A stretch of 32,000 bases of DNA from Candidatus Saccharimonadota bacterium. GTDB lineage: Bacteria; Patescibacteriota; Saccharimonadia; Saccharimonadales; UBA4665. The notes under the pieces were generated by a model, which was not told the origin of the DNA, did no database searches, and saw only the letters and a list, made by a program, of their open reading frames with translations. A program made the translations under genes and the position numbers. This document shows positions 3,898 to 27,212 of this stretch, one piece after another; positions within the stretch are counted from its first letter, which is position 1; each line of letters opens with the position of its first letter. The stretch covers positions 210,001 through 242,000 of the forward strand of contig CP064993.1 of NCBI GenBank assembly GCA_016699955.1, given 5' to 3'.

Positions 3898-4512
3898 CTA
3901 TTCAACGCTGGCTTTAGGCGCACCCCAGCGCTGAGCGATGACAATTTGCAATGTAAAAGCAGCCACTGAAACACCACACATCAGGGCAAAGCCTAGAGAG
4001 AGCAGCTGTGATTCTATGCTCGAGCTATGGAATCGACTTACAAACACAACAACCAGTGGCACACTCGCCGCTCCAAATTTAACCCAAAACTGGACGCGTT
4101 CGGTAAGCAAATTGCGTTTGCGAGCCGGAATTTTTTCTAGTGGCTTGTGGGCAATAATGGGCACCGTTTTTTCTGTGGCAACATGCACAACCTTGCGGGC
4201 GGATTTTGTTGCGCCCGGAATGTATTTTGCAAACACCACGTAAACGAGCAGTACAAAGACTGCGAGACCGAGCGCTACAAATATGACGGTCATAAGCAGC
4301 GAAGGCTCGAGAGGCACGGCTTCAACGGGCGGTACTTCCACGGGCTTCGGCTCAGACTTTGGAAATATAGTCTCGCCTATTTCTGAGTCAATAATCCTTG
4401 GGAGATACAGTGCGAGCAACCAAAACCACTCCATAAACAGCGTAAAATACCCTACCCCGCCAAGCACTTTTAAGACCGTCCGTTGGAACTTTTTTGGTTT
4501 TGCCATTACCAT
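3898..4512 (-). CDS. hypothetical integral membrane protein (about 4 TM helices)
   Basis: A 204-aa ORF with hydrophobic segments (GGVGYFTLFMEWFWLLALYL, LLMTVIFVALGLAVFVLLVYVVF, FGAASVPLVVVFV, LLSLGFALMCGVSVAAFTLQIVI). Its start overlaps the ymdB stop, which suggests translational coupling. Confidence 0.7.
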   Translation of the reverse strand: MVMAKPKKFQRTVLKVLGGVGYFTLFMEWFWLLALYLPRIIDSEIGETIFPKSEPKPVEVPPVEAVPLEPSLLMTVIFVALGLAVFVLLVYVVFAKYIPGATKSARKVVHVATEKTVPIIAHKPLEKIPARKRNLLTERVQFWVKFGAASVPLVVVFVSRFHSSSIESQLLSLGFALMCGVSVAAFTLQIVIAQRWGAPKASVE

Positions 4513-5300
4513 ACCTCGCGGATATGGCGAACCGACTGAGCACGGCTAGTGGCTTCATTAACCTCGATAAGTAAGGCATTGAACTGCATGCGGCCGGATG
4601 TTTCAAGCTTGTTACGAGTTTGGTAGTTGTCTCGCCAGCGGGGTATGATGCTGCCAAAAGTCACACCTAGGCTCGAATCAAGTGAGCCGCACATGCCAAT
4701 ATCGGTCATGTGTGCTGTCCCTTTTGGTAGCACCTGAGCATCCGCGGTTGGCACATGCCAGTGATCGCCAATGACGACACTCATGCGGCCATCGAGATAA
4801 TGGCCAAACACAATTTTTTCGCTACTAAAATCACCGTGAATGTTTACAACGCTCGCAACGTACGATTCGCGCGTAACGATGTTTAAAATTTCATCGATTT
4901 TTTTGAGTGGATTTTCCGTCTCAATGTCTGCCTGCTTACCGACAATACTGCCGAGAATACTAACAACTAGTACCCCGCCTTTTGACGTCTCGACCAGCTT
5001 GTAGCCAGGCCCCGGGCAGCCAACCATATTGGCTGGGCCAACGACTGGTTCGGCCGGATTTTCTAAAAATGAAGTTAAACTCAACAGATGTGGCGTATGG
5101 TTCCCGCCTGAAAATGCCTGCACACCAGCTGACTGCAAGCGCTGCATGTCTTGTGGGTTCATCCCCTTTCCGTCCGTCACATTTTCGGCCTGTGCGACTA
5201 CAAAATCTAGAGCTTCGGCGGCAATAAGACCTGGCAGTACTTTTTCAACCGCCTGCATACCCTGCTCGGCCATCACATCACCAATGTAAAGCAATTTCAT
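4506..5300 (-). CDS. ymdB: YmdB-family metallophosphoesterase (2',3'-cyclic-nucleotide phosphodiesterase-like)
   Basis: Collinear with my recollection of B. subtilis YmdB: MKLLYIGDV..., AENVTDGKG, GGNHT, VNIHGDFSSEK, GDHWHVPTAD, LPKGTAHMTDIGMCG. Confidence 0.85.
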   Translation of the reverse strand: MKLLYIGDVMAEQGMQAVEKVLPGLIAAEALDFVVAQAENVTDGKGMNPQDMQRLQSAGVQAFSGGNHTPHLLSLTSFLENPAEPVVGPANMVGCPGPGYKLVETSKGGVLVVSILGSIVGKQADIETENPLKKIDEILNIVTRESYVASVVNIHGDFSSEKIVFGHYLDGRMSVVIGDHWHVPTADAQVLPKGTAHMTDIGMCGSLDSSLGVTFGSIIPRWRDNYQTRNKLETSGRMQFNALLIEVNEATSRAQSVRHIREVW

Positions 5301-5530
5301 GGTATCAGTATTACACGTGGACTCCCAAAGTCACAACTCACTTGATAGCCCTCAGGCAATGCGCGAAAACCCCACCCCGAAGTAACGAAATGGTCAGTAT
5401 TGCATACAGTTTGCATAATATACATTATAGTGATTATTACAACTTTTTGTTGTAAAATAACAATATTGCAACCAATTGTCTTGAGGAGTATTAGTAAGAG
5501 TGGGCACAAATTTAATGTTTGGGGGGTAGC

Positions 5531-7600
5531 ATGATTAGTCAAAGAATCCAACTTGTAAAAACACAGATAGAACGTGTTAAAAAAAGGCTATACCGTCAAT
5601 CGATTCTCTTTCGGGCATTGTCCGTCTTAGTAGTTCTGGCATTGGTTATACCAATGAATATGCTAGGGCAAGTCAGGGCTGTATCAGATTTGGCTCCGCC
5701 AACTCTTGTTGCAGCGAGTATAACCTCTGGGGCTACGATGAATACCGAGAATACGACATACCAAGGCTACAATGAGCTACTAGTGAACGTCCAAGCCAAC
5801 GACGATTTATCCGGTAGCCAAGCACCCCTCATCGTATACACCTCGCCTTCCGGAAACCAGACTGCCAGCGGGGGCTCAAACGGCGTAGACGCCTCCGAGT
5901 GGATTTCGATAACAAGCTTCCCACAATACTCAGAAGCAGGCGTCTGGACGCCCACAATGTACCTAGAGGACTACTCAGGCAACAAAGTTACCTATACAGA
6001 TTCGCAGTTACAAGTTATGGGCATAAATATCGACGTAACACTGACCGGGCAAGGTGATACGACAAATCCGGAGCTCGTCAGTATCACGCGAATTGGTCCT
6101 GGGGAATTAGACGTAACCGGCTACATCCCATCTACCAATTTCACCGTGCATATGACAGATAATGTTTCAGGCTTCGGTATCCCAACGCTCACCTATACTT
6201 CTCCCTCAGGTAATCAAGTAATGGCTCCGGCCGTTTGTAATATCATGGACGGGCATACATCAACCGTTGCGGACTATGATTGCGCAGCATACTTCAACCA
6301 ATATTCGGAGACGGGCATATGGACACCTGACCTCTTTATAGCTGACGGAGCTGGCAATATAGTCCACCTGTCAAATAACGAACTACTCGCCCGTGGAATC
6401 GATGCCCGAGTATCTATTGTAGGAACAAGCGATACTACACCACCTACCTTGTCGGATGTTGATGTCACGTTTGCTAATCCTCCGGCAGATAACATACCGT
6501 TTGGGGGTGCTGTGATGACATTGACGGGAACAGTAACCGATAACCTCTCAGGTATCAACGGCACGTCATACATCGGGTACACCTCGCCGACAGGCAAAAC
6601 AGTGTACGGCTCATTGCATATTCCTGAAAATAACGGTGTATTCATTTCCGACGTTTTTTTGCCCTTGTACGCCGAAGGTGGCACTTGGCTGCCGACTATC
6701 TTCGTCCAAGACCCTGCTGGGAATCAGCGTACTTACTCAGTTAGTGACCTAGAGGCTCTTGGGTCGAACATTGCTATAACTGTGTCAAAAAATATCACAG
6801 AGAATGCCACGCCTGGCGGTACGGTAACCTCTGACTATGAAAATGACGGCGCTACATCAGCTAACCCTATCGAGGCTAGCGTCACTACACCAACAGGTGG
6901 ACCGGTATCCATCGTCATCGTACAGTCAGACGACATAAACAGCCCAACGAATAGCTACACGTTCTTTGACCGGCAACTGAATATCACGGCGCCTACCGAA
7001 ACTGTGGAGAGCCCACTGACTCTTAGTTTCACTATCGACTCGTCTGTGGTGCCTTCCGGTGAATCGGCAAGCACCTTACAAATAACCAGAAACGGCACGG
7101 TCGTATCAGAATGTACCGATCAGACGACTGCTACGCCGAACCCCTGTGTCTTCTCGCGTCAGACTCTGGGCGGAGGAGATATATTGGTCCAAATCCATTC
7201 TACGACCGCGAGTGCATGGGCGTCAGGGTTCCCAACACATACAAGCGACTACAATTTTGTTGGGTTCAGCGGCGGAACGAAAGATTACTCGAAAGTAAAT
7301 AAAGCTCAAGCAGGGCAAGTACTTTCGATAGAAATGAAAATCAAAGATGTGCCTCATGGTGTTACTGACATCTTAGCTGCCGGCGAACCGACATCCCAGC
7401 GAGTAAACTGCAGCACGCTTGCAACTATTGGCTCCCCGGAAGCTACACTATCGCCTAAGAATAGCGGCTTAGAAAGAATAGGTAAGAACAAGTTTGAGTA
7501 TGATTGGCGAACCGTTAAAAGTTGGGAAAACACGTGCCGCGTATTCAACGTTCAGCTCATAGATGGCAGCAGCCAGAAAGCACTGTTCAAGTTCCAATAA
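5531..7600 (+). CDS. secreted/anchored surface protein with three tandem ~120-aa Ig-like repeats and a Cys-containing C-terminal beta-domain
   Basis: Start placed at the ATG at 5531, with a GGGGGG run (5516-5526) upstream; the track start at 5519 is TTG. N-terminal hydrophobic anchor or signal (ALSVLVVLALVIPMNMLGQVRA). The repeats span 5687-6793 and share D-x-x-x-P-x-L ... D-(N/D)-(L/V)-SG ... YTSP(S/T)G ... (Q)YSE(A/T)G-W-(T/L)P ... D-x-(S/A)GN. The C-terminus (F-x-G-F ... N-K-A-Q-A-G ... C ... Y-D-W-R-T ... W-x-x-x-C-R ... L-x-D-G ... F-K-F) resembles a domain I recall from other secreted proteins. Confidence 0.8.
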   Translation: MISQRIQLVKTQIERVKKRLYRQSILFRALSVLVVLALVIPMNMLGQVRAVSDLAPPTLVAASITSGATMNTENTTYQGYNELLVNVQANDDLSGSQAPLIVYTSPSGNQTASGGSNGVDASEWISITSFPQYSEAGVWTPTMYLEDYSGNKVTYTDSQLQVMGINIDVTLTGQGDTTNPELVSITRIGPGELDVTGYIPSTNFTVHMTDNVSGFGIPTLTYTSPSGNQVMAPAVCNIMDGHTSTVADYDCAAYFNQYSETGIWTPDLFIADGAGNIVHLSNNELLARGIDARVSIVGTSDTTPPTLSDVDVTFANPPADNIPFGGAVMTLTGTVTDNLSGINGTSYIGYTSPTGKTVYGSLHIPENNGVFISDVFLPLYAEGGTWLPTIFVQDPAGNQRTYSVSDLEALGSNIAITVSKNITENATPGGTVTSDYENDGATSANPIEASVTTPTGGPVSIVIVQSDDINSPTNSYTFFDRQLNITAPTETVESPLTLSFTIDSSVVPSGESASTLQITRNGTVVSECTDQTTATPNPCVFSRQTLGGGDILVQIHSTTASAWASGFPTHTSDYNFVGFSGGTKDYSKVNKAQAGQVLSIEMKIKDVPHGVTDILAAGEPTSQRVNCSTLATIGSPEATLSPKNSGLERIGKNKFEYDWRTVKSWENTCRVFNVQLIDGSSQKALFKFQ

Positions 7601-8258: not shown

Positions 8259-9947
8259 TTAGCGTTTGTCTATGAAAGTTACTATTGAACCTGCGCAGTT
8301 ATCGGCATTGGCCGCACAAGCAGTAGCACCACTCCATACTGTTCGAGCATTGCCAAGCACATTATAGATGGTTCCGGTACCTTCTGTCGGTTTGGTCGCC
8401 ACCGTGCGAGCATAGCCTGCTGTTGCCGAAGTGAATAGGTACGAGTTTACAGTATTTGAACCAGTGATTGCTTTGACTGCAGCCGGTCCTCCGGTTGCCA
8501 TGATTGCGTTGATTGTAGTGGTAGACGCTGCCCCGGTTGTCGCGACTATAACGCCTCCGATATTATTAAAATTTGCTGTAGTTGTGCTCTGAACAACACC
8601 CTTGGTAGCAACGAAGGTGACAATAGTACCGATGCCGATGGCGCTATTAAGCGCCACAGTAGCCTTTTCGGTCGTAGTGTATGTCCTAGTATCGTAAATC
8701 TGCGTAATGGTGTTGTTGGCACCGGTAAAACCAATATCTGCCAGACACAATATAGGGGACGTGGCAGACGGGAAAGATACGGTGGCGAGGTTCGCTGTTT
8801 CAGTTCCCGATGCAGAAAGAGCTGGCTGATTATTTGCACCTGTAAGACATAGGTGCTGGAACCTGGCTGCAACGGCGTTTGTCGTGGTAGCCGTACCTGC
8901 AGTAACTATGACTTTCCTACCGCCAGAATACGCGGTGCATCCTGTCCAAGAAACAGTTGTCGTGTTCGCCCCTACCGCAACCTTGCATGGACCATTAATT
9001 GCTGCTGTTACACCATAAATATCCCCGGGGTTTGCTCCACTGTCTGGCAGGACACCGAATAGTTGTAGTCCCAAGCCGGCAGTTGACACCATGTCTTCCC
9101 AGGTACCATTGACACAGCCTCGGATGACATTTGTACTGGTGTTATAGTACAGGCCGCCCTGGTTCGTAGTAGTGCCGCATGTAGCGGTGTCCGCGAATGT
9201 GCTGAATGAATCGAGCTGGAGCAATACTTGCGTGGTGTCAGTGGCGTTCGAGCCTATTACTACCTCACTACCGCTTGTGTCGGCACTAAGTATGGCAACA
9301 CTACCAGTAGATTGGATTTGGAAAGCCGTGGCGGAGTCTGCTTGGTTCTTCATAAGTACCGCTCCGTTATTTCCCACCGAGAATACCGTGGCACCATTTC
9401 GTTGCAAGTCCATCACACTCGCAGTTGCGCCTGTCTTATTGACACCAATGGAAGCGCTGGTGGTAGACGTGTCGCTCTGTACCCCCTGCGCAAGCTGTAC
9501 GAATTGGGCGCTTGTGAGCCCATCAACTTGGTCGGCATTGAAAGCATACGGCGAGGCGGTGAACTGTATACGCGGCGTCATTTCCGCATCTGCCCCGACT
9601 TTTACCCCCAAGTACAGCGAGTTTGTGTTGAAGTCGACGCTACCAGGCAGGCTAGTCACGCTCCCAAGAGAAACCTGAAATATTCCGTCTGCGACTGACA
9701 CGGAAGGCTGGGTCTCTGTCCACACTGCCGAACCGCCCGAGCTAACGGTGTAAATACTGAAAACAATTGAATATGCCCCATTAGTGACATTTGTCCCATC
9801 TGGGTTGGTCAGCTTACCTTGGAAATTTATCTGCTGGTTGATGGCAGCGTCGGTGTGTGGGGAGCTTAGGAAAAAGGCCATGCCGAATAGCAGGCAAACC
9901 GCCAGAAAAACCGCTCCTTTTACCGCTCTTTTTTGTATACCAAACAT
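8259..9947 (-). CDS. large secreted Thr/Gly/Ala-rich surface protein, tail-fibre-like/adhesin-like
   Basis: Signal peptide (AVFLAVCLLFGMAFFLSSPHTDA). The N-terminal module is INFQGKLTNPDGTNVTNGAYSIVFSIYTVSSGGSAVWTETQPSVSVADGIFQVSLG...LYLGVKVGADAEMTPRIQFTASPYAFNADQVDGL, a pattern I recall from tail-fibre-like surface proteins. Paired cysteines occur throughout. Confidence 0.75.
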   Translation of the reverse strand: MFGIQKRAVKGAVFLAVCLLFGMAFFLSSPHTDAAINQQINFQGKLTNPDGTNVTNGAYSIVFSIYTVSSGGSAVWTETQPSVSVADGIFQVSLGSVTSLPGSVDFNTNSLYLGVKVGADAEMTPRIQFTASPYAFNADQVDGLTSAQFVQLAQGVQSDTSTTSASIGVNKTGATASVMDLQRNGATVFSVGNNGAVLMKNQADSATAFQIQSTGSVAILSADTSGSEVVIGSNATDTTQVLLQLDSFSTFADTATCGTTTNQGGLYYNTSTNVIRGCVNGTWEDMVSTAGLGLQLFGVLPDSGANPGDIYGVTAAINGPCKVAVGANTTTVSWTGCTAYSGGRKVIVTAGTATTTNAVAARFQHLCLTGANNQPALSASGTETANLATVSFPSATSPILCLADIGFTGANNTITQIYDTRTYTTTEKATVALNSAIGIGTIVTFVATKGVVQSTTTANFNNIGGVIVATTGAASTTTINAIMATGGPAAVKAITGSNTVNSYLFTSATAGYARTVATKPTEGTGTIYNVLGNARTVWSGATACAANADNCAGSIVTFIDKR

Positions 9948-10028: not shown

Positions 10029-11345
10029 TTATGCTTTGCGTGGTGTTTTCCGAGCGGTGGTTCTTTTTACGGTTTTCTTCGTGCTCGCTCCCTTACGCGG
10101 AGCTGCTGTTTTCTTCTGAGAAGTTGGCTTGGTACTCGCCTTGGACGATGTCTTTTTGACCGGTTTCAAATCCTTGGTAACTTTTACTGGAATGCTGCGT
10201 GGAGCATGTGCAGTTCCTTTTTCGGCTATGTGCTTAACAATCATTTTAGCTGCGCTTTTTCTTGCTCTCGCCTTTGTGGCTTCATGGTGTGCGTAGAGTG
10301 CGGCGCCGCCCAATTTACGGGGGCGTGCAGTGCCATCAGATGTTCGCTTGAAAAAACGAAAATAAACACGCTTTCCGCGTTTGAACGGCCATCGTAAAGC
10401 CTTGGCTAGGCGCACTACCATTTTGCGATATGGTATATGTTTTAGGTGCGCCCGTTGCCACCACACGAGCAGTACGATAACCCCAAGGAAAAGTACGTCG
10501 ACAAACGGTACATACCAGAATGTTTGCTGCTTAATAAGCTCAACGTCACTACCGTCTATCCTGTACATCGTCTGCATGCGGATATGCTTGGGAAACCAGG
10601 TATGTAACACTGCTTGCACTGGGGCAGAATAGGTTGCTTTTTGCCTAGGGAACAGCAAACGCGATTCAGTGTTGACCACGGCGCGAGCGAAAAGCTGTTG
10701 GCCGTTCGTGCTGTAAAAACTTACGCTTGCTCTTGGGACAACATGGGCATTTCCGCTATTTCGAAACGTCAAATCGACGCTACGGGGCAATCCGAAAGGG
10801 CTATGCTTTGCCTGTAGTTTCTGCAGCTCAAGATTCGTACGTAGACCTTCAGCATTGACCACGAAGACACTCACTGCGACAGCTGGCCGAAAGGCAAGTG
10901 CAGCACGGGCAGCCCCCTGTTCCGTAATTACTAGATTGGCATAGTGCCCGCCAGGTGCAAGCGGCTGCGTGCCGTTCACAACAAGTTGTAATTGTACCTG
11001 TCCATGAGCCGGAATCGTCAGGTCTGTATTGGAAATCGATAACGCCTTAGCGAAGCTGCCAGTCAGCGGACTGGTCGGCACAAGTCGTGCGCTGGACTCG
11101 TCAATGGATCGAAGCTCGGCTGCAAGCCGAACAGTGGAAGCATAATTGTTAGTGATAGTCACACTTGCTTCGGTACCGGGCTTCTGGCGATTGACCGTCA
11201 GACTTATCTGCGCTGGCGAGACGGTTAAGCCTGTTTTGACGGAACCAGCCTGAGCACCTGCCCTCGATGGGCACAGCAGAAAGATTGCTCCGGCCACAAA
11301 GAGCAAACTGTACGCTATTACAGAAAGATTACGGCTTCGTATCAT
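10029..11345 (-). CDS. exported two-domain beta-sandwich-like protein with a C-terminal TM anchor and a long basic cytoplasmic tail
   Basis: Start placed at the internal ATG at 11345 (MIRSRNLSVIAYSLLFVAGAIFLLCPSRAGAQA signal). The mature N-terminus reads GLTVSPAQISLTVNRQKPGTEASVTITNN. A second domain (VDLTFRNSGNAHVVPRASVSFY...) is followed by the TM helix FVDVLFLGVIVLLVWW and a 142-aa Lys/Arg/Thr/Ala-rich tail. The architecture matches the upstream gene. Confidence 0.75.
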   Translation of the reverse strand: MIRSRNLSVIAYSLLFVAGAIFLLCPSRAGAQAGSVKTGLTVSPAQISLTVNRQKPGTEASVTITNNYASTVRLAAELRSIDESSARLVPTSPLTGSFAKALSISNTDLTIPAHGQVQLQLVVNGTQPLAPGGHYANLVITEQGAARAALAFRPAVAVSVFVVNAEGLRTNLELQKLQAKHSPFGLPRSVDLTFRNSGNAHVVPRASVSFYSTNGQQLFARAVVNTESRLLFPRQKATYSAPVQAVLHTWFPKHIRMQTMYRIDGSDVELIKQQTFWYVPFVDVLFLGVIVLLVWWQRAHLKHIPYRKMVVRLAKALRWPFKRGKRVYFRFFKRTSDGTARPRKLGGAALYAHHEATKARARKSAAKMIVKHIAEKGTAHAPRSIPVKVTKDLKPVKKTSSKASTKPTSQKKTAAPRKGASTKKTVKRTTARKTPRKA

Positions 11346-12408
11346 CTTGATGTGAGGCTTTTTTGCTACGACGAACTTTGCGCGACGTCGCACCCACGGC
11401 TCGACCGAACGAACGAAGTATAACGATAACCCCGATGATGAGCACGATGATAATAAGCAACAGGCATAGTAGCATCCGCCATGGTATGACCCAGAAGCTT
11501 AGTTCGGCCATGACAGGCGTATCGCGCTGACCGTCGTTGTAGACAGCCACAACCTTGGCGACATACCGACCCATACGGAGCTTGCTAATACCCCCCTTCC
11601 AGACGAGCTTTTGCTTTTTTGTACCATCCGGTTCTGTAACGGTTTCGTAGTGTGGGAATCCATCGTCCCACTCAGCCACAAATGTCCGCGTCGTCCCTGG
11701 GATGATGAAACCACCGTCTTTGTTTAGCGCCAACGTGGCGAGTGGAACGGTATCGCTGGAGTGCCTCTGGATAAAGACGGTACCGGTCGGTTGCACATCG
11801 GTGTTGCCAGTATTTTTCAGCTTGATAGAAACGCTAGCAGGAAGATACTCATAGGTACGCTTGCTGAGTGATACACTTTTGAGGCTGAATTGCCGGACTG
11901 CGCCAGGCCGATCGACATTAACGAGCGTGAAAACTGCGACCGAACCTGCAATAGCCGACGTACCTTTGGCAGCCTTGGGTGGGTTCTGTTGTGCGATAGT
12001 TACTGCAAAATTATAGGTAAACGCGGCGTCAGACGTTGTGTTGATATGAATACGCTGGGTGAATATCTGACCGGCCTGAAGCGTAAATGTCGGCTCTTCG
12101 AATCGTACAAGCTGCTGTATTGCCTGTGACGGATTATCACCAAGGCTGACTTGCTCGGTTGTTTCATTGACCGTAAATGGCCTCAGACCCATTTTGAGCG
12201 CCTGTGTCGTCGTATTGGTATTACGAATTTGCAGTTCAAGAACAGTATTAGTACCAGGTCGTACTGTCGTCACCAGAGGCGAAGGGCTCACTTGCAGCGA
12301 AAAACCTTGTTCCGCAGCATGAGCCGTCGCAAAATGCATTGGTACGAAAGCGCAGGCTACGACGAAGCCGACAGCGACATGACGCAAAACTTTAGATACC
12401 CTCTTCAT
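11329..12408 (-). CDS. exported two-domain beta-sandwich-like protein with a C-terminal TM anchor (DUF916/DUF3324-like architecture, by memory)
   Basis: Signal peptide (VAVGFVVACAFVPMHFATAHA). The mature N-terminus reads AEQGFSLQVSPSPLVTTVRPGTNTVLELQIRNTN. A second domain (VSIKLKNTGNTDVQPTGTVFIQ...IIPGTTRTF...MGRYVAKVVAVY...FWVIPW) is followed by the TM helix LLCLLLIIIVLIIGVIVIL and a short basic tail. Confidence 0.75.
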   Translation of the reverse strand: MKRVSKVLRHVAVGFVVACAFVPMHFATAHAAEQGFSLQVSPSPLVTTVRPGTNTVLELQIRNTNTTTQALKMGLRPFTVNETTEQVSLGDNPSQAIQQLVRFEEPTFTLQAGQIFTQRIHINTTSDAAFTYNFAVTIAQQNPPKAAKGTSAIAGSVAVFTLVNVDRPGAVRQFSLKSVSLSKRTYEYLPASVSIKLKNTGNTDVQPTGTVFIQRHSSDTVPLATLALNKDGGFIIPGTTRTFVAEWDDGFPHYETVTEPDGTKKQKLVWKGGISKLRMGRYVAKVVAVYNDGQRDTPVMAELSFWVIPWRMLLCLLLIIIVLIIGVIVILRSFGRAVGATSRKVRRSKKASHQDDTKP

Positions 12409-12451
12409 TACCCTCTATTGTACACGAGAAATAGTCCTCGCTGCTAGCCAG

Positions 12452-12486
12452 AAAAAAACGGCCGCGAGGTCTACCCTCACGGCCGT
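12452..12486 (-). terminator. strong rho-independent terminator after the 12510..13538 subunit gene
   Basis: On the minus strand, ACGGCCGTGAGG-GTAGA-CCTCGCGGCCGT forms a 12-bp stem with one G-U pair, followed by T7 (plus-strand A-run 12452-12458). It begins 24 nt after the stop codon. Confidence 0.85.
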
Positions 12487-12509: not shown

Positions 12510-13538
12510 TTAGAACAAACCTGCACCAACTACCGTGATGGTGTCAGTGTAATCTGTTGCTGGAAGCGTCAAGCTGCTGATAGCTGCGTTGTTCGTCAGA
12601 GTCAGCACGGCAGTTTGAGCCGTTCCGGTTGACGAAGCAAGCGTGCGGAGAGTCGTATCGAGACCACCACCCTTACCAGCGCTACCACCGACAAATGGTG
12701 CGGCGACAGTAACTGTGCCGGTTCCACCGACCTGTGATTGAGTCACGCCCGTGTTGTAGCCTTCAGTGCCAGCTGACAAGGTACTGTTAGAACCAGGTGT
12801 CGTAGAAGCAATAGTCGCTGAAGCTGTCGTCGAGTTCAAGCCCGTGCTGGCATCTTTTGCCCATACATACCAACCGTTCTTTGCATTGGTATTGACTGTA
12901 GCGGTACGTGGTGTCGGACTGACAGACACGCTACCGGTTGAAAGCGCACCAAGGTTATCACTGTTGCCACTGAGTGCAAAAGTGAATGAAGGAGCGACGG
13001 TAGCACTCACCACAATCTGATCATCTGCGATGGCTGCAGTAGCAAAGGAAATGGCTGTGTCGACATTGGTCTCAACCGTGCCCGAGTAGGTGCCAGCTAC
13101 ACTCGTCTCAAGCGCAGTAGTACTGTTCGTCCAGTTGAAGCAATACAATGTACCGGACACCAGCGCACCACTGGACCAAGTGACTGCTTTGCCGACAACG
13201 CCAGAGGCACTTGCACCAATAGACGGCCAAGCCGATGCTGTGGCTGGCCACGCAAGGTTGGCCGTGCTGGTAGCCCAGTCACCGGTGGTACCACTGACTG
13301 TATATGCCGTTGGAAATGTGACTGTGACAGATGTCTGACCGGCATTTGCGGCCTTGGCACAGACGGTGCCGCTTGTGAAAGTCGAAGCTTTCATGCGGTC
13401 GAAGCGTACGAGCACCTGGCTGAGGCTGGCTGCCGAGGCAGTGCTACCGAGTGCAAGCATCACAGAAGTGACAACGGCAGCTATATATAACCCTGCCAGT
13501 GTAAATGCTGCCAGCCGAACTGATTTATTCTTTTGCAT
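12510..13538 (-). CDS. secreted Thr/Ala/Gly/Ser-rich subunit-like protein, paralogous in its C-terminal domain to 13657..14700
   Basis: Start placed at the ATG at 13538 (MQKNKSVRLAAFTLAGLYIAAVVTSVMLALGSTASA signal; AAGGAAG Shine-Dalgarno upstream). The C-terminal domain reads TVAPSFTFALSGN...TNAKNGWYVWAKDASTGL...GY...PF...ATDYTDTITVVGAGLF-COOH. The gene has its own promoter and a strong terminator. Confidence 0.8.
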   Translation of the reverse strand: MQKNKSVRLAAFTLAGLYIAAVVTSVMLALGSTASAASLSQVLVRFDRMKASTFTSGTVCAKAANAGQTSVTVTFPTAYTVSGTTGDWATSTANLAWPATASAWPSIGASASGVVGKAVTWSSGALVSGTLYCFNWTNSTTALETSVAGTYSGTVETNVDTAISFATAAIADDQIVVSATVAPSFTFALSGNSDNLGALSTGSVSVSPTPRTATVNTNAKNGWYVWAKDASTGLNSTTASATIASTTPGSNSTLSAGTEGYNTGVTQSQVGGTGTVTVAAPFVGGSAGKGGGLDTTLRTLASSTGTAQTAVLTLTNNAAISSLTLPATDYTDTITVVGAGLF

Positions 13539-13579
13539 ACTAATTTCTTCCTTTATTTTTACTTGTAACATATAGAAGA

Positions 13580-13608
13580 ATTATGCACGATACACGGCAT
13601 AAGCGCAA
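13580..13608 (-). promoter_or_regulatory. sigma70-like promoter for 12510..13538 (TTGCGC-17-CATAAT on the minus strand)
   Basis: Plus-strand GCGCAA at 13603-13608 (-35) and ATTATG at 13580-13585 (-10) with a 17-nt spacer. This gives a leader of about 35 nt to the ATG at 13538. Confidence 0.5.
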
Positions 13609-13656
13609 GCACTTTGTGCGCACTGTCACAATAGTCTTAAGAGCTTATCTGAAGCG

Positions 13657-14700
13657 CTAGAAACTCATCGCAGCGACCAGCGTTATGCTGTCGCCGTAAT
13701 CTGGAGCACTCGGTGTTAGGGCTGCCGCCTTTGCCATGAGCCGTAGCGTACCGCTTCCCCCTGTGATAGGGCCTGCTGTTGCCAGCAACGGCTGCAACGA
13801 TGTTGTGACCGCACCGACATTATTCGATGTTCCGTTGAATGGCGATTGAGCCGTGAAAGGACCTCCGCCAGATTGGCTTGTAGACGTTATCTGGCCTCCG
13901 TAGCCGCTGCTCGCAACAGACAAATCCGCAGTCGCAGATGCGAGCGTGGTGTTAGCAAGCGTACTATAAAGCCCTGTATGTGTATCACGTAGGTACACCG
14001 TCCCGCCGTTATTGGCATTGGTAGTCATGCTGATGATTCCGTCTGCGCTACCATTGGTCACGGCTCCAGCGGCCAGGCTTGTAAATCCGACCGTAAATGG
14101 AGGCGTGCCTGTAAGCGTCGTGGCGAGGCTGAAGGTCACACTCGGTGCAACTGTTGACGCTGTTGCGACTGGGCCAAAAGCACTGCCAGTGGACTTGCCC
14201 TCTAGTGCCTTCACTTTGACTTTATAGGTCGTCGAGGGGGTAAGCCCAACAACCGAAAAGCCACTTGCTCCACCCCAAGCTGTGTACGTCTGATAATTAA
14301 CGATGGCTTGACTAGCCCCGATGCTGTTGTCGGTTTGTACATAAAGTGTCGTCACGAAATTATCACTGCTTACCGCAATAAGATACTTCGTATCACTCGG
14401 ATTACCGCCGGTGGCAAGCACAAGCTTAAGTCTGTCATAGTAGCTAGAAGGATTTGTAAATGTCGGTGCGGGTGGCACATTGGCGTTCACGACGCCTCGC
14501 CCGTCACTCTGCGCGCCGTACGTCGTCGAAGACTGAGCCGTTGCAGATGGTGCTCCTGTGCCAGCCTGGAGGCCATAATTGGTACTGGTCGACGTGCCAC
14601 CACCCGTACCAACATTGTACGTTTTGAGAGTGTAGTTCGTACTGCTCGGCGCCGCCGCAAATAACAGTACTGGCAGTGTAAGTCCCCAAAGCTTATGCAT
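13657..14700 (-). CDS. secreted protein: Gly/Thr-rich N-terminus, fibronectin-III-like domain, then a C-terminal domain paralogous to 12510..13538
   Basis: Short signal peptide (MHKLWGLTLPVLLFAAA). FN3-like stretch: PPAPTFTNPSSYYDRLKLVLATGGNPSDTKYLIAVSS...GLTPSTTYKVKVKALEG. C-terminal domain: TVAPSVTFSLA...TNANNGGTVYLRDTHTGL...GYG...PF...APDYGDSITLVAAMSF-COOH. Confidence 0.8.
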   Translation of the reverse strand: MHKLWGLTLPVLLFAAAPSSTNYTLKTYNVGTGGGTSTSTNYGLQAGTGAPSATAQSSTTYGAQSDGRGVVNANVPPAPTFTNPSSYYDRLKLVLATGGNPSDTKYLIAVSSDNFVTTLYVQTDNSIGASQAIVNYQTYTAWGGASGFSVVGLTPSTTYKVKVKALEGKSTGSAFGPVATASTVAPSVTFSLATTLTGTPPFTVGFTSLAAGAVTNGSADGIISMTTNANNGGTVYLRDTHTGLYSTLANTTLASATADLSVASSGYGGQITSTSQSGGGPFTAQSPFNGTSNNVGAVTTSLQPLLATAGPITGGSGTLRLMAKAAALTPSAPDYGDSITLVAAMSF

Positions 14701-14740
14701 ACATCCTAGTATAGCGCAGATGCGAAATGCGTGAAGCCCC

Positions 14741-14858: not shown

Positions 14859-15419
14859 CTATTTCCACTGCCAGTTGGTCACGACGGCTTCCAGAGTACT
14901 CTCTAGGTCGGCTTTGTGTACCGATGAGCCACTCACGACCACTGCTGCGTAATTTGAGCCTTGAGCCCAGTACACAGCCGTTTCATATGTATCTGCTTTC
15001 GTAAAAACTAGCGCACTCGCTGGTGCGAATGGACGGGTCGAGACCGCATATACGTCCGACTGTAATCTACGCAGTTTTATCGCCGAGAGCTCTTCCAACT
15101 GCATTGTCCCGAGCGTCCCTACCGTCACCCCCAGTTGATCATCCCGTCTGAGCAAAGTAGACCCCAGCAGATATTGGCCCGTGGTCATACCCTGCGCTAC
15201 CTCGTTGCTACTGACAACTCTCAGGCTACTCGGTGCTCGAGTAATGAAATGTTCGGTTTTCCAAGTGAAAAGCTTCTCCTGACTGCCAAGAACCGCCCTG
15301 CTTTCCTCTTGATCAGTTGTGACCACCGTGGTTACCGCGGATTGATTCCACCAGATAAAACCCCCGGTGCCAATACCAAGCACAATGGCTGCCGCAATCC
15401 CAATGAGCCATTTTTTCAT
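14859..15419 (-). CDS. small N-terminally anchored extracytoplasmic protein (partner of the upstream PKD-motif protein gene)
   Basis: A 186-aa ORF with an N-terminal TM helix (WLIGIAAAIVLGIGTGGFIWW). An ATGA start/stop overlap joins it to 15416..16396. Size and architecture match 7714..8256. Confidence 0.7.
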   Translation of the reverse strand: MKKWLIGIAAAIVLGIGTGGFIWWNQSAVTTVVTTDQEESRAVLGSQEKLFTWKTEHFITRAPSSLRVVSSNEVAQGMTTGQYLLGSTLLRRDDQLGVTVGTLGTMQLEELSAIKLRRLQSDVYAVSTRPFAPASALVFTKADTYETAVYWAQGSNYAAVVVSGSSVHKADLESTLEAVVTNWQWK

Positions 15420-16396
15420 TTGCGTTTTGTGCCTTTTTTAACCGATTTGATTGTGGACTGCTCCAGTCCTGTCTCGTAGCGATGTTTCGCACGTTGATAC
15501 CCAAACCTGTACGTTACAATGAAGATAAAGTTAAAAAATATAAAGTAGGCTGCATAATACCAGCCCGCCCAATCCGTATTTGATTGAGGAAACGTGCGAA
15601 CACTACCACCTTTTGATTGATCCGGTGCATTACCCGTGTTGCTGACAACGGCGTAAATATATTCTGTGTAGCCACCCCTCGCATCTCTGACACGCAGATG
15701 GACCGGATAGGCCTTGGCTGTTCGATATGTATGTGTAAACTCATACATGCCCGCTAGGTTGATACTGTGTGACTCTGTCGTGCCATCCCCCCAGTTGAGA
15801 GCTAGCACGTAGGGGCTCTCGCCTCCGCCAATCACAACACGTATCGTCGCCTCAGTATTCGAGGAGGTAACGAAGCTGAAAGGATCCTGGGTAGTCACTG
15901 TTAGGCCACTTTCGCTCCCAGCGTTTGATGCCCCTGTTTGCTGCTCATTTGAACTCGGTTGATTGACAGAGGGAGGGAGCGGCTCCACCACAACGGCTTG
16001 GGTGAACGTAACGACCCTAGCAGCACTGTCTGGCCCAAACACACCATTGACGTTTGCCGTTCGCGCGATGAGAGTATTCTGGCCAGGACTTAGTGCAATC
16101 TGCAGACTGTATAATCCGGATGTGCAGCTTGTTGAACCTAGTATTTGTCCGTCACGCCAGACAGAGACTACTCCTGGTGGTGCGATGGATTCACATGTAC
16201 CACTTACTGTTTGCAGGGCATTTTGAAACGTCATACCGCCAGTGGGTGATGCGATAGTCGCTGCCTGTGAAGGTGCCGGGTAGGGCACCACCGCGTTGAC
16301 GTTATAATCTTCAGCAAAAACCCAGCGTGTAGAAACCGCGCCAATCATCACGACGAGCAATAGGACAAGAGCAAGATAGTGTCGTCTGTATCTCAT
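15416..16396 (-). CDS. exported protein with an Ig-like region, a PKD-like motif and a C-terminal TM anchor
   Basis: Signal peptide (LALVLLLVVMIGAVSTRWVFA). PKD-like signature: NWGDGTTESH...HTYRTAKAYPVHLRVRDARGGY. C-terminal TM helix (WAGWYYAAYFIFFNFIFIVTY) followed by a basic tail. Confidence 0.75.
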   Translation of the reverse strand: MRYRRHYLALVLLLVVMIGAVSTRWVFAEDYNVNAVVPYPAPSQAATIASPTGGMTFQNALQTVSGTCESIAPPGVVSVWRDGQILGSTSCTSGLYSLQIALSPGQNTLIARTANVNGVFGPDSAARVVTFTQAVVVEPLPPSVNQPSSNEQQTGASNAGSESGLTVTTQDPFSFVTSSNTEATIRVVIGGGESPYVLALNWGDGTTESHSINLAGMYEFTHTYRTAKAYPVHLRVRDARGGYTEYIYAVVSNTGNAPDQSKGGSVRTFPQSNTDWAGWYYAAYFIFFNFIFIVTYRFGYQRAKHRYETGLEQSTIKSVKKGTKRK

Positions 16397-16531: not shown

Positions 16532-18046
16532 CTACTTCGCAAATTCGATAGCGCGGGTTTCGCGAATGACATTTACCTTGATAGTACCGGGGTAGTTCAT
16601 ACTACTTTCTATCTTTGTGGCAATGTCGCGGGCAAGGCGAATGGCCGTGAGGTCATCGATCTGCTGTGGTTTTACAAAAACACGGACTTCGCGACCAGCA
16701 CTAATAGCGTAAGACTTCTCAATACCATTAAAGCCGTTTGCTATGTTTTCAAGCTCTTTCATACGCTCAGCGAAGTTTTCGGATGAGATGTTTCGAGCGC
16801 CAGGGCGGGCGGCAGAAACAGCGTCACAGACACGCACAATCACAGCTTCTAGGCTGGTTGCTTCCATGTCGTCGTGGTGCTGCTCGGCAGCGAGCGCGAC
16901 CGCTTCTGGGGCACCATATTTGCGCAACATTTCACCGCTAATATGGTGGTGCTTGCCTTCCATTTTATGAGTCAGCGCTTTGCCTAGGTCGTGGAATAAC
17001 GTTGCGTATTTGGTTATTGCCACGTTTGCGCCGAGTTCTTCGGCAAGCATACCAGCCATGTGAGCCATTTCAGTTGAGTGTTTTAAGACATTTTGCCCAT
17101 AGCTAGTGCGGAATCTTAATTCACCTAACATATGCAGCAGTTCTTTAGGAACGCCAAGTACACCAACTTCACGAGCAGCATCTTCGCCCGCACGTAGCAC
17201 ATCTTTTTCGACATTCTTTTGAGCTTTTTCGACGACTTCTTCTATGCGACCTGGGTGAACGCGGCCATCCTTAAGCAAAAGTTCGAGCGCTTGTCGGGCA
17301 ACTTCACGACGAACTGGGTCAAAACAGCTCAGCACAATATAACCTGGTGTATCGTCGACCATAATATCGACGCCGGTTGCCTTTTGGAGCGCTTGAATAT
17401 TGCGCCCTTCCTTGCCGATAATCCGGCCTTTCATTTCCTCGTCTTCTAGTTTCACGCTCGTAAGGGTTCGCTCTGCTGTCACTTCACTGGCCATACGCTC
17501 CATGGCGGTAACTATAATCAGCCCAGCGGCATCTTCAGCATTATCTCGAGCTTCATTTTGGAGTTTTGCAACAAGTCCGAGCAAGTCATTCTTTATGTCT
17601 TTCTCAGTCATTTGCATGAGCTTTTCAGCCGCATCTGCCTTGGTAAGCTTGGCGATTTTCTCAAGCTTTTCTTGCTGCTTTAGGCGGATGTCCCGAATTT
17701 CATTTTTAAGCGCTTCTACTTCATCTTCACCCGTACGAAGTTTCTCATTCCGCTTATCGAGCTCGTCGAGCTTTTTATCGAGAGTGGTTTCACGTTGTAC
17801 AAGTCGGAGTTCAAGTTCTTTCAGTTCATTTCGACGAGTTTGTTCTTCTTTACGCGCTTCGTCGGCTACCTTACGAGCGTCTTCCCGGGCTTCATCGATA
17901 AGCTTATCCGCTTCTTTTTTTGCTTTTGACAGTTCCCTTGAGGCCTTGTCATCAGCCGCAGCTGATTTTTTTTTGCTGACATATGTGCTGCCTGAATAGC
18001 CAAGGCCAAGCCCTGCTACCACGAGCAAAATAGTAATTGGATCCAT
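16532..18046 (-). CDS. rny: ribonuclease Y
   Basis: N-terminal TM helix, then a long Lys/Glu coiled-coil region. KH motif: IGKEGRNIQALQKATGVDIMVDDTP. HD domain: TLFHDLGK...HHDD. 504 aa. Confidence 0.95.
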   Translation of the reverse strand: MDPITILLVVAGLGLGYSGSTYVSKKKSAAADDKASRELSKAKKEADKLIDEAREDARKVADEARKEEQTRRNELKELELRLVQRETTLDKKLDELDKRNEKLRTGEDEVEALKNEIRDIRLKQQEKLEKIAKLTKADAAEKLMQMTEKDIKNDLLGLVAKLQNEARDNAEDAAGLIIVTAMERMASEVTAERTLTSVKLEDEEMKGRIIGKEGRNIQALQKATGVDIMVDDTPGYIVLSCFDPVRREVARQALELLLKDGRVHPGRIEEVVEKAQKNVEKDVLRAGEDAAREVGVLGVPKELLHMLGELRFRTSYGQNVLKHSTEMAHMAGMLAEELGANVAITKYATLFHDLGKALTHKMEGKHHHISGEMLRKYGAPEAVALAAEQHHDDMEATSLEAVIVRVCDAVSAARPGARNISSENFAERMKELENIANGFNGIEKSYAISAGREVRVFVKPQQIDDLTAIRLARDIATKIESSMNYPGTIKVNVIRETRAIEFAK

Positions 18047-23901: not shown

Positions 23902-23942
23902 AGAATGGTTTGCGGTTGTGGTTTTTGGTATACTTATACGCA

Positions 23943-25766: not shown

Positions 25767-25876
25767 TAAACAAGGAAGGGGCCGTGACGAGCAAGAACTT
25801 GCTTATCTTATAAACTAGGTACGTCATAGTAGAATCTATGGTATCGGGTCGCAAGTTGCGCTACTATTTAAAGCAT

Positions 25877-27088: not shown

Positions 27089-27118
27089 GCGAGTAACCAC
27101 GCGGTATAGATAAAAGAC

Positions 27119-27146: not shown

Positions 27147-27212
27147 CAGAGGCAGACTTACGGGCTTTCCGTTAAGCAATATAAAATCTACATATAAGGA
27201 GGGTGGGCCCCT

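What the first reader, a model, noticed from the sequence alone, without database searches (positions are those of the whole stretch)
12510..14700. Two adjacent paralogous subunit-like proteins ending in Y-x-D-x-I-T-h-V-x-A-x-x-F-COOH; one is expressed like a major structural subunit
The last ~170 residues of the two proteins align motif by motif:
- TVAPS(F/V)TF(A/S)L
- TNA(K/N)NG
- D(A/T)(S/H)TGL
- GY, then PF
- (T/P)DY(T/G)D(T/S)IT(V/L)V(G/A)A..F at the very C-terminus

The alternating hydrophobic terminal strand ending in an aromatic residue recalls the final strand of SCPU/chaperone-usher-type subunits and the C-terminal motif position of WxL domains.

The N-terminal halves differ. One carries an FN3-like domain behind a Gly/Thr-rich region.

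The 12510 gene has its own TTGCGC-17-CATAAT promoter, a good Shine-Dalgarno, and a 12-bp-stem/T7 terminator. That is the classic set-up of an abundant major subunit upstream of lower-abundance assembly genes.
Basis: partly seen in the sequence, partly recalled or inferred. Interest (0 to 1): 0.7.

Follow-up and report, generated by a model that had tools for sequence, protein, structure and literature searches.

The report
Pam-type pilus operon of Saccharibacteria

Summary
The last ~160-175 residues of the two minus-strand proteins (A, 12510-13538; B, 13657-14700) are homologous: BLASTP E=6e-14, family profile comparison E=2.5e-21. The N-terminal halves are unrelated; B's is weakly FN3-like.

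The window comes from a Candidatus Saccharibacteria MAG. The genes sit in a conserved cluster: R326, s186, B, A, C359, D454, fib562.
- R326 matches NCBIfam "CPR pilus PamR" (E=1.7e-35; 21 of 21 orthologues match).
- A few A-family and B-family members match the NCBIfam Pam pilin and PamT models. A and B themselves do not.
- C359 models confidently (pLDDT 91.5) as two Ig-like domains plus a C-terminal transmembrane helix. Its best structural matches are Enterococcus WxLIP, then chaperone-usher chaperones.

This fits the Pam pilus of Ca. Mycosynbacter amalyticus (bioRxiv 10.64898/2026.03.03.709456), which is built from donor-strand-exchange pilins with membrane-anchored chaperones and no usher.

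A has a promoter conserved across relatives and a terminator type seen only after A genes, as expected for a major subunit. B, D454 and the fibre gene co-occur perfectly (26 loci with all three, 29 with none).

Verdict: a divergent new member of a known kind. Polymerisation was not tested here, and A's C-terminal domain could not be modelled.

The parts
12510..13538 (-). Gene A: major pilin candidate (PamB-like). 342 aa from the ATG at 13538. Signal peptide, roughly residues 1-36; beta-sandwich N-terminal domain with two conserved Cys; linker; C-terminal 'Pam' domain ending in F-COOH.
   Evidence: ORF. More than 1,300 homologues, all unannotated, and 738 cluster representatives at 50% identity. 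AF2 N-terminal domain is confident; the C-terminal domain is not. Present in all 79 related loci. 3 of 118 family members hit NCBIfam NF058581, Pam pilin.
12975..13022 (-). A linker DQIVVSATVAPSFTFA: candidate donor strand between the two domains.
   Evidence: The A/B similarity starts here. D173, V181 and F185 are nearly invariant across 118 diverse family members. The preprint says the linker is the donated strand. Coordinates checked.
12513..12554 (-). A C-terminal strand DYTDTITVVGAGLF-COOH.
   Evidence: D329 and Y330 are invariant; D332, T335, A339, G340 and F342 are nearly invariant in alignment A3. Coordinates checked.
13657..14700 (-). Gene B: accessory, possibly tip, pilin (PamT-like C-terminal domain). 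347 aa. Short signal peptide, three S-x-N-Y-x-L / Gly-rich repeats, FN3-like domain, linker GPVATASTVAPSVTFSL (14125-14175), Pam C-terminal domain ending DYGDSITLVAAMSF (13660-13701).
   Evidence: 2 of 33 orthologues hit NCBIfam NF058579, PamT (E=2.2e-8). Present in 36 of 79 loci, always with D454 and fib562 where the flanks are complete.
13580..13608 (-). Promoter-like TTGCGC-17-CATAAT upstream of A.
   Evidence: Sequence read. A positionally conserved CTTGC...CATAAT/CATACT box is seen in about a dozen orthologous loci by eye. Below the threshold of the generic scan.
13547..13553 (-). Shine-Dalgarno AAGGAAG, 8 nt before the ATG at 13538.
   Evidence: Sequence read.
12451..12486 (-). Intrinsic terminator after A: 12-pair stem, loop of 5, seven T.
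   Evidence: Under one uniform criterion, terminator-like hairpins follow A genes in 16 of 82 cases, against 0 of 85 for C, 0 of 37 for B and 0 of 53 for R.
11329..12408 (-). C359: membrane-anchored chaperone candidate (PamC-like / WxLIP-like). Signal peptide, two Ig-like domains, transmembrane helix 310-351, basic tail. The conserved strand AIAGSVAVFTLVNVD (11911-11955) follows a flexible loop and is a candidate G1-like donor strand.
   Evidence: AF2 pLDDT 91.5. Foldseek: WxLIP 9i25_C at 5.5e-10, then CsuC, CfaA, FimC, PapD, SafB at 1e-8 to 2e-6. 20 of 61 family members give weak PF06030 hits. Follows A in 69 of 79 loci.
10029..11393 (-). D454: second chaperone paralogue (PamD-like) with a long Lys/Arg-rich cytoplasmic tail. 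The likely start is the ATG at 11345.
   Evidence: hhalign of C against D: Prob 99.7%, E=8.6e-26. BLASTP E=1e-6. Co-occurs only with B.
15416..16396 (-). R326: PamR-like anchor/terminator protein. Signal peptide, mature N-terminus EDYNVNAVVPYPAP (16271-16312), PKD/FN3-like domains, C-terminal transmembrane helix.
   Evidence: NCBIfam NF058578 E=1.7e-35, 122 bits against a curated cut-off of 300. 21 of 21 orthologues hit, best 3.2e-75. The N-terminal consensus D-S-Y-D-V-S-A-T-V-P-A-P resembles the pilin linker.
14859..15419 (-). s186: small N-terminally membrane-anchored protein, translationally coupled to R326. Role unknown.
   Evidence: Conserved in 28 of 79 loci between R and B or A. No family hit. 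Unrelated to the pilin C-terminal domain.
8259..9947 (-). fib562: secreted tail-fibre-like protein, last conserved gene of the full-type cluster.
   Evidence: NCBIfam Bdello_MAT_N E=2e-6, below cut-off. Co-occurs perfectly with B and D. The preprint notes a 'tail fibre-like protein' central to pam neighbourhoods.
14708..14735 (-). Promoter-like TTCACG-16-TATACT ending 8 nt before B's ATG.
   Evidence: Generic scan. Not tested further.

Best explanation
The locus is a divergent Pam-type pilus operon of a Saccharibacterium.

Proposed mechanism:
- A and B are Sec-exported pilins. Each has a variable N-terminal beta-sandwich domain: a 9-11-strand sandwich with a probable disulfide in A, and an FN3-like domain behind S-x-N-Y-x-L repeats in B.
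- Each also has a shared C-terminal domain that is an incomplete Ig-like fold.
- The conserved strand just before that domain ([S/A]-A-T-V-x-P-S-x-T-F) is donated into the groove of the neighbouring subunit's C-terminal domain (donor-strand exchange), giving a linear filament.
- Before assembly the groove is held by membrane-anchored chaperones with a PapD/WxLIP-like fold. By co-occurrence, C359 serves A and D454 serves B. No usher is involved.
- R326 (PamR) ends the filament and ties it to the membrane. It would do so by inserting its linker-like mature N-terminus into the last pilin.
- A is the major subunit. It has its own conserved promoter, a good SD and a terminator or attenuator before the chaperone genes.
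- B, D454 and the fibre protein form an optional module, probably for the tip or for adhesion.

What is shown here: the homology of the A and B C-terminal domains, the operon composition and its conservation, the PamR match, the chaperone fold, and the expression signals.

What is inferred, from the published M. amalyticus cryo-EM work and from motif conservation: strand exchange, subunit order, and the chaperone pairings.
For: - C-terminal domain homology.
- Source organism and family size: Saccharibacteria MAG, a large unannotated family.
- PamR: E=1.7e-35 for the window protein and 21 of 21 orthologues, up to 3.2e-75.
- NCBIfam Pam pilin model hit by 3 of 118 A-family members, and the PamT model by 2 of 33 B-family members.
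- C359 model: pLDDT 91.5, two Ig-like domains plus a C-terminal TM helix. Foldseek top hits are WxLIP and chaperone-usher chaperones. C and D are paralogues.
- Of the 18 invariant or nearly invariant positions of the diverse A family, 17 lie in the linker and C-terminal domain. The preprint reports the same pattern for PamA and PamB.
- The mature N-terminus of the R family mimics the linker motif, matching the preprint's PamR capping model.
- Synteny R-s186-B-A-C-D-fibre, or R-A-C(-C), in 79 species. B, D and the fibre co-occur with Fisher p=2.8e-16.
- Terminator enrichment after A only, and a conserved promoter.
- The A N-terminal domain is a confident beta-sandwich with invariant C60 and C133.
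Against: - A and B themselves match no Pam model in NCBIfam even at E<=10. The link runs through a few family members and through the neighbouring genes.
- PamR scores below the curated cut-off (122 against 300 bits).
- The M. amalyticus PamA, PamB, PamC and PamD sequences or structures could not be reached, so orthology is unassigned.
- The AF2 model of A's linker and C-terminal domain is unusable: pLDDT is below 50 for residues 170-252. The truncated-Ig fold of this domain is therefore not shown here.
- No multimer prediction was possible.
- Gene order and pilin set differ from M. amalyticus: no CTD-only PamT, no 55-kDa PamA, and no ATP-synthase neighbours.
- Only about 20% of A orthologues have a clear terminator.
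Confidence: 0.8

Rival explanations
1. A WxL-like, non-filamentous surface complex. A and B would be monomeric surface proteins whose incomplete C-terminal domain is completed and held at the membrane by the WxLIP-like proteins C359 and D454, as proposed for WxL/WxLIP in Firmicutes. There would be no polymerisation.
For: - The best structural match of C359 is WxLIP from E. faecium, including the entry bound to a long WxL protein.
- 20 of 61 C-family members give weak PF06030 (WxLIP_PGBD) hits.
- Polymerisation was not tested here.
Against: - There is no WxL Pfam hit and no PDB sequence hit for A, B, their families or a C-terminal-domain-only profile.
- The conserved linker motif, also mimicked by the N-terminus of PamR, is hard to explain without subunit-to-subunit donation.
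- PamR, Pam pilin and PamT model hits tie the cluster to a system whose filaments were solved by cryo-EM.
Confidence: 0.1
2. Unrelated secreted adhesins or S-layer-type proteins that merely share a C-terminal cell-surface anchoring domain. The neighbours would be unrelated Ig-fold surface proteins.
For: - The Thr/Ser/Ala/Gly-rich composition is typical of surface proteins.
- There are no significant fold matches for A beyond generic Ig-like sandwiches.
- Variable N-terminal domains on a common C-terminal module are typical of anchoring domains. Some long proteins carry the A-like region at their C-terminus.
Against: - The A-C pairing is strict (69 of 79 loci), as is the B-D pairing.
- C359 has a chaperone-type fold with a conserved G1-like strand.
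- PamR is in the cluster.
Confidence: 0.07
3. Type IV or sortase-dependent pilins.
For: The window also carries type IV pilus genes: PilB, PilC and N-methyl prepilins.
Against: - A and B have ordinary Sec signal peptides and no N-terminal methylation motif.
- They end in F-COOH with no LPXTG motif or hydrophobic tail.
- No sortase gene lies in the cluster.
Confidence: 0.01

Closest known systems
Pam pilus of Candidatus Mycosynbacter amalyticus (PamA/B/E/T pilins, PamC/D chaperones, PamR anchor; bioRxiv 10.64898/2026.03.03.709456; NCBIfam NF058578, NF058579, NF058581)
   Same: - Same class, Saccharimonadia.
- A PamR homologue lies in the cluster.
- Secreted pilins with a variable beta-sandwich N-terminal domain, a conserved linker and a conserved C-terminal domain.
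- Two paralogous chaperone-like proteins with a C-terminal TM helix, and no usher.
- A tail-fibre-like gene in the neighbourhood.
- Conservation is concentrated in the linker and C-terminal domain.
   Different: - A and B are too divergent to hit the NCBIfam pilin models.
- There are only two pilin paralogues here.
- The PamT-like one (B) carries an FN3-like domain and N-terminal repeats instead of being a single domain.
- The gene order is R-s186-B-A-C-D, whereas the accession numbering of the M. amalyticus proteins suggests C-B-R-D-E-A-T (my inference).
- There is an extra small membrane protein, s186.
- The operon lies next to rny, with ymdB a few genes further on, rather than next to ATP synthase genes.
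WxL / WxLIP (DUF916-DUF3324) surface protein clusters of Enterococcus, Lactobacillus and Listeria (PMC10599100; PDB 9i1y, 9i25)
   Same: C359 has the WxLIP architecture (signal peptide, two Ig-like domains, C-terminal TM helix), and WxLIP is its best Foldseek match. [quoted passage not shown] That is the same principle in a bacterium without an outer membrane.
   Different: - A and B show no detectable WxL domain or WxL motifs.
- There is no LPXTG partner gene.
- WxL proteins are not known to polymerise.
- The sequence signal to PF06030 is only sub-threshold.
Classical and archaic chaperone-usher pili (Pap, Fim, Csu, CFA/I)
   Same: - The two-domain PapD-like chaperone fold.
- Subunits ending in an alternating hydrophobic strand with a C-terminal aromatic residue.
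- A major-subunit gene with its own promoter and terminator ahead of the assembly genes.
   Different: - No outer membrane and no usher.
- The chaperones are membrane-anchored.
- The pilins have two domains, and in Pam pili the donor strand is an internal linker rather than an N-terminal extension.
- No Fimbrial, SCPU or PapD Pfam matches.

Membership tests
Pam pilus system (CPR) | A PamR (RbmA-like, membrane-anchored) gene in the cluster | tested here: met
   R326 hits NF058578 at E=1.7e-35, 122 bits, below the curated 300-bit equivalog cut-off. 21 of 21 orthologues hit, best 3.2e-75.
Pam pilus system (CPR) | Pilins recognised by Pam pilin sequence models or homologous to PamA/PamB | tested here: inconclusive
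   A and B have no hit even at E<=10. 3 of 118 A-family members hit NF058581 (1.6e-5), and 2 of 33 B-family members hit NF058579, PamT (2.2e-8).
Pam pilus system (CPR) | Pilin architecture: signal peptide, beta-sandwich N-terminal domain, linker strand, truncated Ig-like C-terminal domain | tested here: inconclusive
   The signal peptide and N-terminal beta-sandwich are confident (pLDDT 75-90). The linker and C-terminal domain are modelled below pLDDT 50. The conservation pattern fits.
Pam pilus system (CPR) | PapD/FimC-like chaperones carrying a C-terminal transmembrane helix; no usher | tested here: met
   C359 model and Foldseek matches. D454 is homologous to C359. No usher-like gene is in the window.
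Pam pilus system (CPR) | Assembly by donor-strand exchange into a filament | not testable with these tools
This needs AF-multimer/AF3 or an experiment.
Pam pilus system (CPR) | Restricted to CPR, mainly Saccharimonadia | tested here: met
   100% match to a Ca. Saccharibacteria MAG. Nearly all of the 79 related loci are titled Saccharibacteria, Saccharimonadales/Saccharimonadia or Patescibacteria. A few carry other titles: Nevskiaceae, Pristimantibacillus, Bacillota, Parcubacteria and plain 'bacterium'.
Classical chaperone-usher pili | Outer-membrane usher and periplasmic, soluble PapD-family chaperone | tested here: not met
   No usher is present, and the chaperone-like proteins are TM-anchored. 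PapD_N/C is absent from the 25 families listed, of 59 that matched, for the C family.
Classical chaperone-usher pili | Fimbrial or SCPU pilin domain | tested here: not met
   No such Pfam family appears for A or B, among the 25 of 42 families listed for 118 A-family members, or among all 10 families returned for the 32 C-terminal-domain-only sequences.
WxL domain proteins | WxL domain (Pfam WxL family) with two Trp-x-Leu motifs | tested here: not met
   No WxL hit in Pfam scans at E<=1 to 10. The C-terminal-domain profile finds no PDB chain, although a WxL-containing entry (9i25) is in the fold library. A has GWYVW only, and B has no Trp there.
WxLIP (DUF916-DUF3324-TM) | Two Ig-like domains plus a C-terminal TM helix, matching PF06030/PF11797 | tested here: inconclusive
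   The architecture and the top Foldseek hit fit. PF06030 hits are only sub-threshold, in 20 of 61 members, best E=0.0014. There is no PDB sequence hit.
Type IV pilins | N-terminal methylation motif / class III signal peptide | tested here: not met
   Absent from A and B. Present in other genes of the window.
Sortase-assembled pilins | C-terminal LPXTG sorting signal and a sortase gene | tested here: not met
   Both proteins end ...VGAGLF and ...VAAMSF with no sorting signal. No sortase gene was found.

The most novel reading that the evidence does not exclude
The membrane-anchored Pam chaperones (C359 and D454, PamC/D-like) would be true homologues of the Firmicute WxL-interacting proteins (DUF916-DUF3324). 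The Pam pilin C-terminal domain would be the counterpart of the WxL domain. Pam pili and WxL surface complexes would then be two branches of one 'membrane-anchored chaperone plus strand-complemented subunit' superfamily in bacteria without an outer membrane.

This link is not made in the Pam preprint. It would predict either that WxL proteins can polymerise or that Pam pili arose from a non-polymeric WxL-like ancestor.
Probability: 0.3. Interest if true: 0.65.

Novelty: new member of a known kind. Interest (0 to 1): 0.38.

Why it matters
Pam pili are a newly recognised filament class, reported in 2026, that ultrasmall parasitic CPR bacteria appear to use to reach their hosts.

- **Wider distribution.** This locus shows that a sequence-divergent branch, invisible to the current NCBIfam pilin models, is widespread in Saccharimonadia. 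It has 738 cluster representatives at 50% identity and at least 79 species loci.
[quoted passage not shown] These give concrete candidates for tip or adhesin components and for chaperone-pilin specificity.
- **Sequence support for the capping model.** The linker motif is shared with the mature N-terminus of PamR.
- **Link to Gram-positive systems.** The chaperones resemble WxLIP of Gram-positive bacteria.

None of this changes the mechanism already proposed in the literature.

Tried and rejected
**Reaching M. amalyticus PamA/B/C/D for direct orthology failed.**
- PDB sequence searches with A, B and the profiles A1, A4 and A6 found no Pam entry.
- Foldseek of the A model against the PDB gave only generic Ig-like hits with E>1e-3.
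- The single genome-contig scan returned 79 Saccharimonadia loci but not Mycosynbacter.
- A molecular-weight guess (38.7 kDa) followed by cluster look-up found only unnamed metagenome proteins.

**The A structure model was only partly usable.** The linker and C-terminal domain have pLDDT below 50 with an alignment of close homologues. Both prediction jobs were then spent, so the more diverse alignment A3 could not be tried.

**Searches that led nowhere.**
- Alignment A3 was too diverse for the search for related loci.
- tblastn of C359 against plasmids, meant to fetch WxLIP sequences, found nothing useful.
- The first strict terminator criterion undercounted because A-T pairs at the stem base consumed the T-run. 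It was replaced by the criterion.

**Hypotheses rejected.**
- WxL, SCPU and Fimbrial membership for the subunits.
- s186 as a CTD-only PamT.
- s186 and s180 as paralogues.
- Type IV and sortase pilins.
Full report
**1. The observation**

All genes of interest lie on the minus strand. In transcription order they are:
- R326 (16396-15416)
- s186 (15419-14859)
- B (14700-13657, 347 aa)
- A (13571 or 13538 to 12510)
- C359 (12408-11329)
- D454 (11393-10029)
- fib562 (9947-8259)
- s180 (8256-7714)

BLASTP of A against B gives a single strong alignment over the last ~170 residues: 34% identity, E=6e-14.

I extracted orthologue families from 79 related loci. The profile-profile comparison of the C-terminal parts gives Prob 99.4%, E=2.5e-21 over 159 columns. 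The tool's own hhalign on full-length alignments gives Prob 98.7%, E=2e-16. The N-terminal halves are unrelated (Prob 0.6%).

B's N-terminal half is weakly FN3-like. Pfam fn3 scores E=0.0056, below the cut-off. The B-family profile hits only FN3 domains in the PDB, best E=0.0046.

The expression signals are there:
- The terminator at 12486-12451 has 12 pairs, 9 of them G-C, and seven T.
- TTGCGC-17-CATAAT lies at 13608-13580, and AAGGAAG lies 8 nt before the ATG at 13538.
- The real start of A is most likely 13538 (342 aa), as in most homologues.

**2. What it is**

A is 100% identical to a hypothetical protein of a Candidatus Saccharibacteria MAG. The family is large and unannotated. There are more than 1,300 hits among the scored candidates. 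In the exhaustive search there are 738 representatives of 50%-identity clusters, 266 of them below 1e-30.

The gene two positions upstream of B, R326, matches NCBIfam NF058578, "pilus system RbmA-like protein PamR", at E=1.7e-35. That led to a 2026 preprint, bioRxiv 10.64898/2026.03.03.709456. The authors solved filaments of Ca. Mycosynbacter amalyticus by cryo-EM. They found two-domain pilins, PamA and PamB: a beta-sandwich N-terminal domain, a linker strand, and a truncated Ig-like C-terminal domain that accepts the neighbour's linker. The operon also encodes:
- PamE and PamT pilins
- PamC and PamD, chaperones like PapD/FimC but with a C-terminal transmembrane helix
- PamR, proposed to cap the filament with its N-terminal strand and anchor it

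I tested this identification with the tools.

- **PamR.** All 21 R326 orthologues scanned match the PamR model, best 3.2e-75.
- **Pilin models.** 3 of 118 diverse A-family members match NF058581, "Pam pilus system pilin subunit", at 1.6e-5. 2 of 33 B orthologues match NF058579, "PamT", at 2.2e-8. A and B themselves match nothing.
- **Chaperone fold.** C359 modelled with pLDDT 91.5 as a signal peptide, two beta-sandwich domains and a long C-terminal helix. Its Foldseek matches are WxLIP of Enterococcus faecium (9i25_C, 5.5e-10; 9i1y) and then the chaperone-usher chaperones CsuC, CfaA, FimC, PapD and SafB at 1e-8 to 2e-6.
- **Second chaperone.** D454 is a paralogue of C359 (hhalign Prob 99.7%, E=8.6e-26).
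- **No usher.** No usher-like gene exists in the window.
- **A's N-terminal domain.** It is a confident 9-11-strand beta-sandwich with two Cys that are invariant among close homologues.
- **A's C-terminal domain.** The linker and C-terminal domain were modelled below pLDDT 50. The fold of the shared domain is therefore not shown here, and the fold search for A returned only generic Ig-like hits.

**3. Comparative anatomy**

One scan of species-representative genomes returned 79 loci, nearly all titled as Saccharibacteria, Saccharimonadia or Patescibacteria MAGs. Gene content falls into two formats:
- a full cluster, R-s186-B-A-C-D-fibre
- a reduced cluster, R-A-C, often with a second C copy

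A is followed by a C-type gene in 69 of 79 loci. Among the 55 loci with complete flanks, B, D454 and fib562 are all present in 26 and all absent in 29 (Fisher p=2.8e-16). This argues that C359 serves A and D454 serves B. It parallels the PamB:PamC and PamT:PamD pairs predicted in the preprint (Fig. S8 legend).

Only the A and B classes carry the shared C-terminal domain in the window and in all the loci.

Across 118 diverse A-family members, 17 of the 18 invariant or nearly invariant positions lie in the linker and C-terminal domain: D173, V181, F185, TNA..G...W, L234, S236 and DY.D..T...AG.F. The preprint reports the same pattern for PamA and PamB.

The mature N-terminus of the R family has the consensus D-S-Y-D-V-S-A-T-V-P-A-P, and EDYNVNAVVPYPAP in the window. 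It resembles the pilin linkers IVVSATVAPSFTF (A) and ASTVAPSVTF (B). That is what the capping model would predict. The hhalign signal for this short stretch is not significant on its own (P=0.029).

In C359 the most conserved stretch, GSVAVFTL, follows a flexible loop at the end of domain 1. By position it corresponds to the G1 donor strand of PapD-like chaperones. This is an inference.

**4. Expression**

I applied one uniform hairpin-plus-T-run criterion to all loci. Terminator-like structures follow 16 of 82 A-type genes. They follow 0 of 85 C, 0 of 37 B, 0 of 53 R and 0 of 29 fibre genes, and 2 of 30 D genes. A looser energy-based criterion gives 36 of 71.

A -35/-10 box of the form CTTGC-17-CATAAT/CATACT sits about 60-70 nt before the A start in about a dozen of the aligned loci that I picked out by eye, including distant ones.

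So the [quoted passage not shown] reading has comparative support, although the terminator is not universal. In M. amalyticus the two major pilins are the 2nd and 9th most abundant proteins.

**5. Comparison with known families**

The locus works like, and is best filed as, a divergent member of the Pam pilus system.

It is not a classical chaperone-usher system. There is no usher, the chaperones are membrane-anchored, and there are no Fimbrial, SCPU or PapD Pfam matches.

The subunits are not WxL-domain proteins by any sequence test available.

WxLIP (DUF916-DUF3324-TM) is the top structural match of C359. 20 of 61 C-family members give sub-threshold PF06030 hits. [quoted passage not shown] The Pam preprint does not mention WxL or DUF916. 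A common origin of the two systems is therefore the most novel reading left open, at about 0.3 probability.

Type IV and sortase pilins are excluded by the termini of A and B.

**6. Limits**

- I could not obtain the M. amalyticus sequences or the structures 25PZ and 25QA, so orthology (A~PamB, B~PamT, C~PamC, D~PamD) rests on size, architecture, co-occurrence and weak model hits.
- Strand exchange, subunit order and the chaperone pairings are inferred, not shown.
- The A C-terminal domain model failed, and two fold libraries were unavailable.

**7. Verdict**

The system has been known since 2026, so this is a new and divergent member of a known kind. Interest is moderate to low (0.38). The value added lies in three things: the two cluster formats, the link between the PamR N-terminus and the pilin linker, and the WxLIP lead.

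Noticed in passing
window 8259-9947 (-): A 562-aa secreted protein whose N-terminus weakly matches the Bdellovibrio 'mosaic adhesive trimer' fibre family (NF053851, E=2e-6, below cut-off). It co-occurs perfectly with B and D454 in 55 complete loci. It may be the adhesive tip or a separate prey-binding fibre.
   Followed up: partly
window 16532-18046 (rny) and 4506-5300 (ymdB): The pilus cluster lies downstream of RNase Y, with YmdB a few genes further on. The same layout is seen in L002 and L004. In L008 rny and ymdB are adjacent and the cluster follows them. This looks like an insertion between two genes that, from my own knowledge, are usually neighbours in Firmicutes. The ATP-synthase neighbourhood stressed in the preprint is absent here.
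   Followed up: partly
window 14500-14649 (-), B residues 18-66: Three conserved S-(S/T)-x-N-Y-x-L ... G-x-G-G repeats lie directly after B's signal peptide. A linker-like VVNANVPPAPTF follows, before the FN3-like domain. Function unknown. They could be extra donor-type strands or a binding site for the fibre.
   Followed up: no
loci L045, L053, L055-L058, L064-L066, L068, L070, L072, L078 (about 20-40 nt upstream of A-type starts): A recurrent CATAAGCA / AAGCATAA motif sits in the 5' leader of A orthologues. The window and its closest relatives have GTAAAA(A)TAAAGGAA instead. It may be a leader element for stability or regulation.
   Followed up: no
loci L002, L011, L016, L042, L048, L051, L056, L059 and others; window ~12417-12422: Right after the terminator hairpin downstream of A there is often a TATAC(T)-like -10 box. 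The window has TACAAT. This suggests the chaperone gene has its own promoter and does not rely on read-through.
   Followed up: no
L030 13430-18485, L017 12395-17212, L018 12327-17511: In reduced-type loci a conserved string of genes follows A-C, of about 234, 460, 220-245, 199 and 290-313 aa. They have no significant Pfam match; the only hit, DUF4992, is below its cut-off. They could be further, unrecognised pilus components.
   Followed up: partly
proteins P0284, P0287, P0291, P0300 and P0345, P0363, P0369, P0371, P0378, P0389: Some long proteins (770-1641 aa) carry the whole A-like region at their C-terminus. Others carry only the A-type N-terminal domain at their N-terminus. The two pilin domains are therefore shuffled independently.
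   Followed up: no
window 23910-27692 (+) and 28054-31818 (-): A type IV pilus gene set: PilB-like ATPase, PilC-like platform, and three proteins with N-terminal methylation motifs, one of 515 aa with a CarboxypepD_reg domain. The organism has both filament systems.
   Followed up: partly
window 2316-3308 (+) and 23236-23853 (-): Two transposase genes: an rve-type integrase with an HTH domain, and an IS200-like Y1 transposase.
   Followed up: no
window 5519-7600 (+): A 693-aa secreted repeat protein with DUF7743 and a C-terminal PxKF domain (NF038114, E=1.2e-18). It is convergent with the end of the pilus cluster.
   Followed up: no
L012, L025, L077, L033: Contigs carrying this Saccharimonadia-type cluster are titled Nevskiaceae, Pristimantibacillus, Bacillota or Parcubacteria. 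Mis-binned MAG contigs are more likely than horizontal transfer.
   Followed up: no
window 14708-14735 (-): A promoter-like TTCACG-16-TATACT ends only 8 nt before B's ATG. B may be translated from a very short or absent leader.
   Followed up: no
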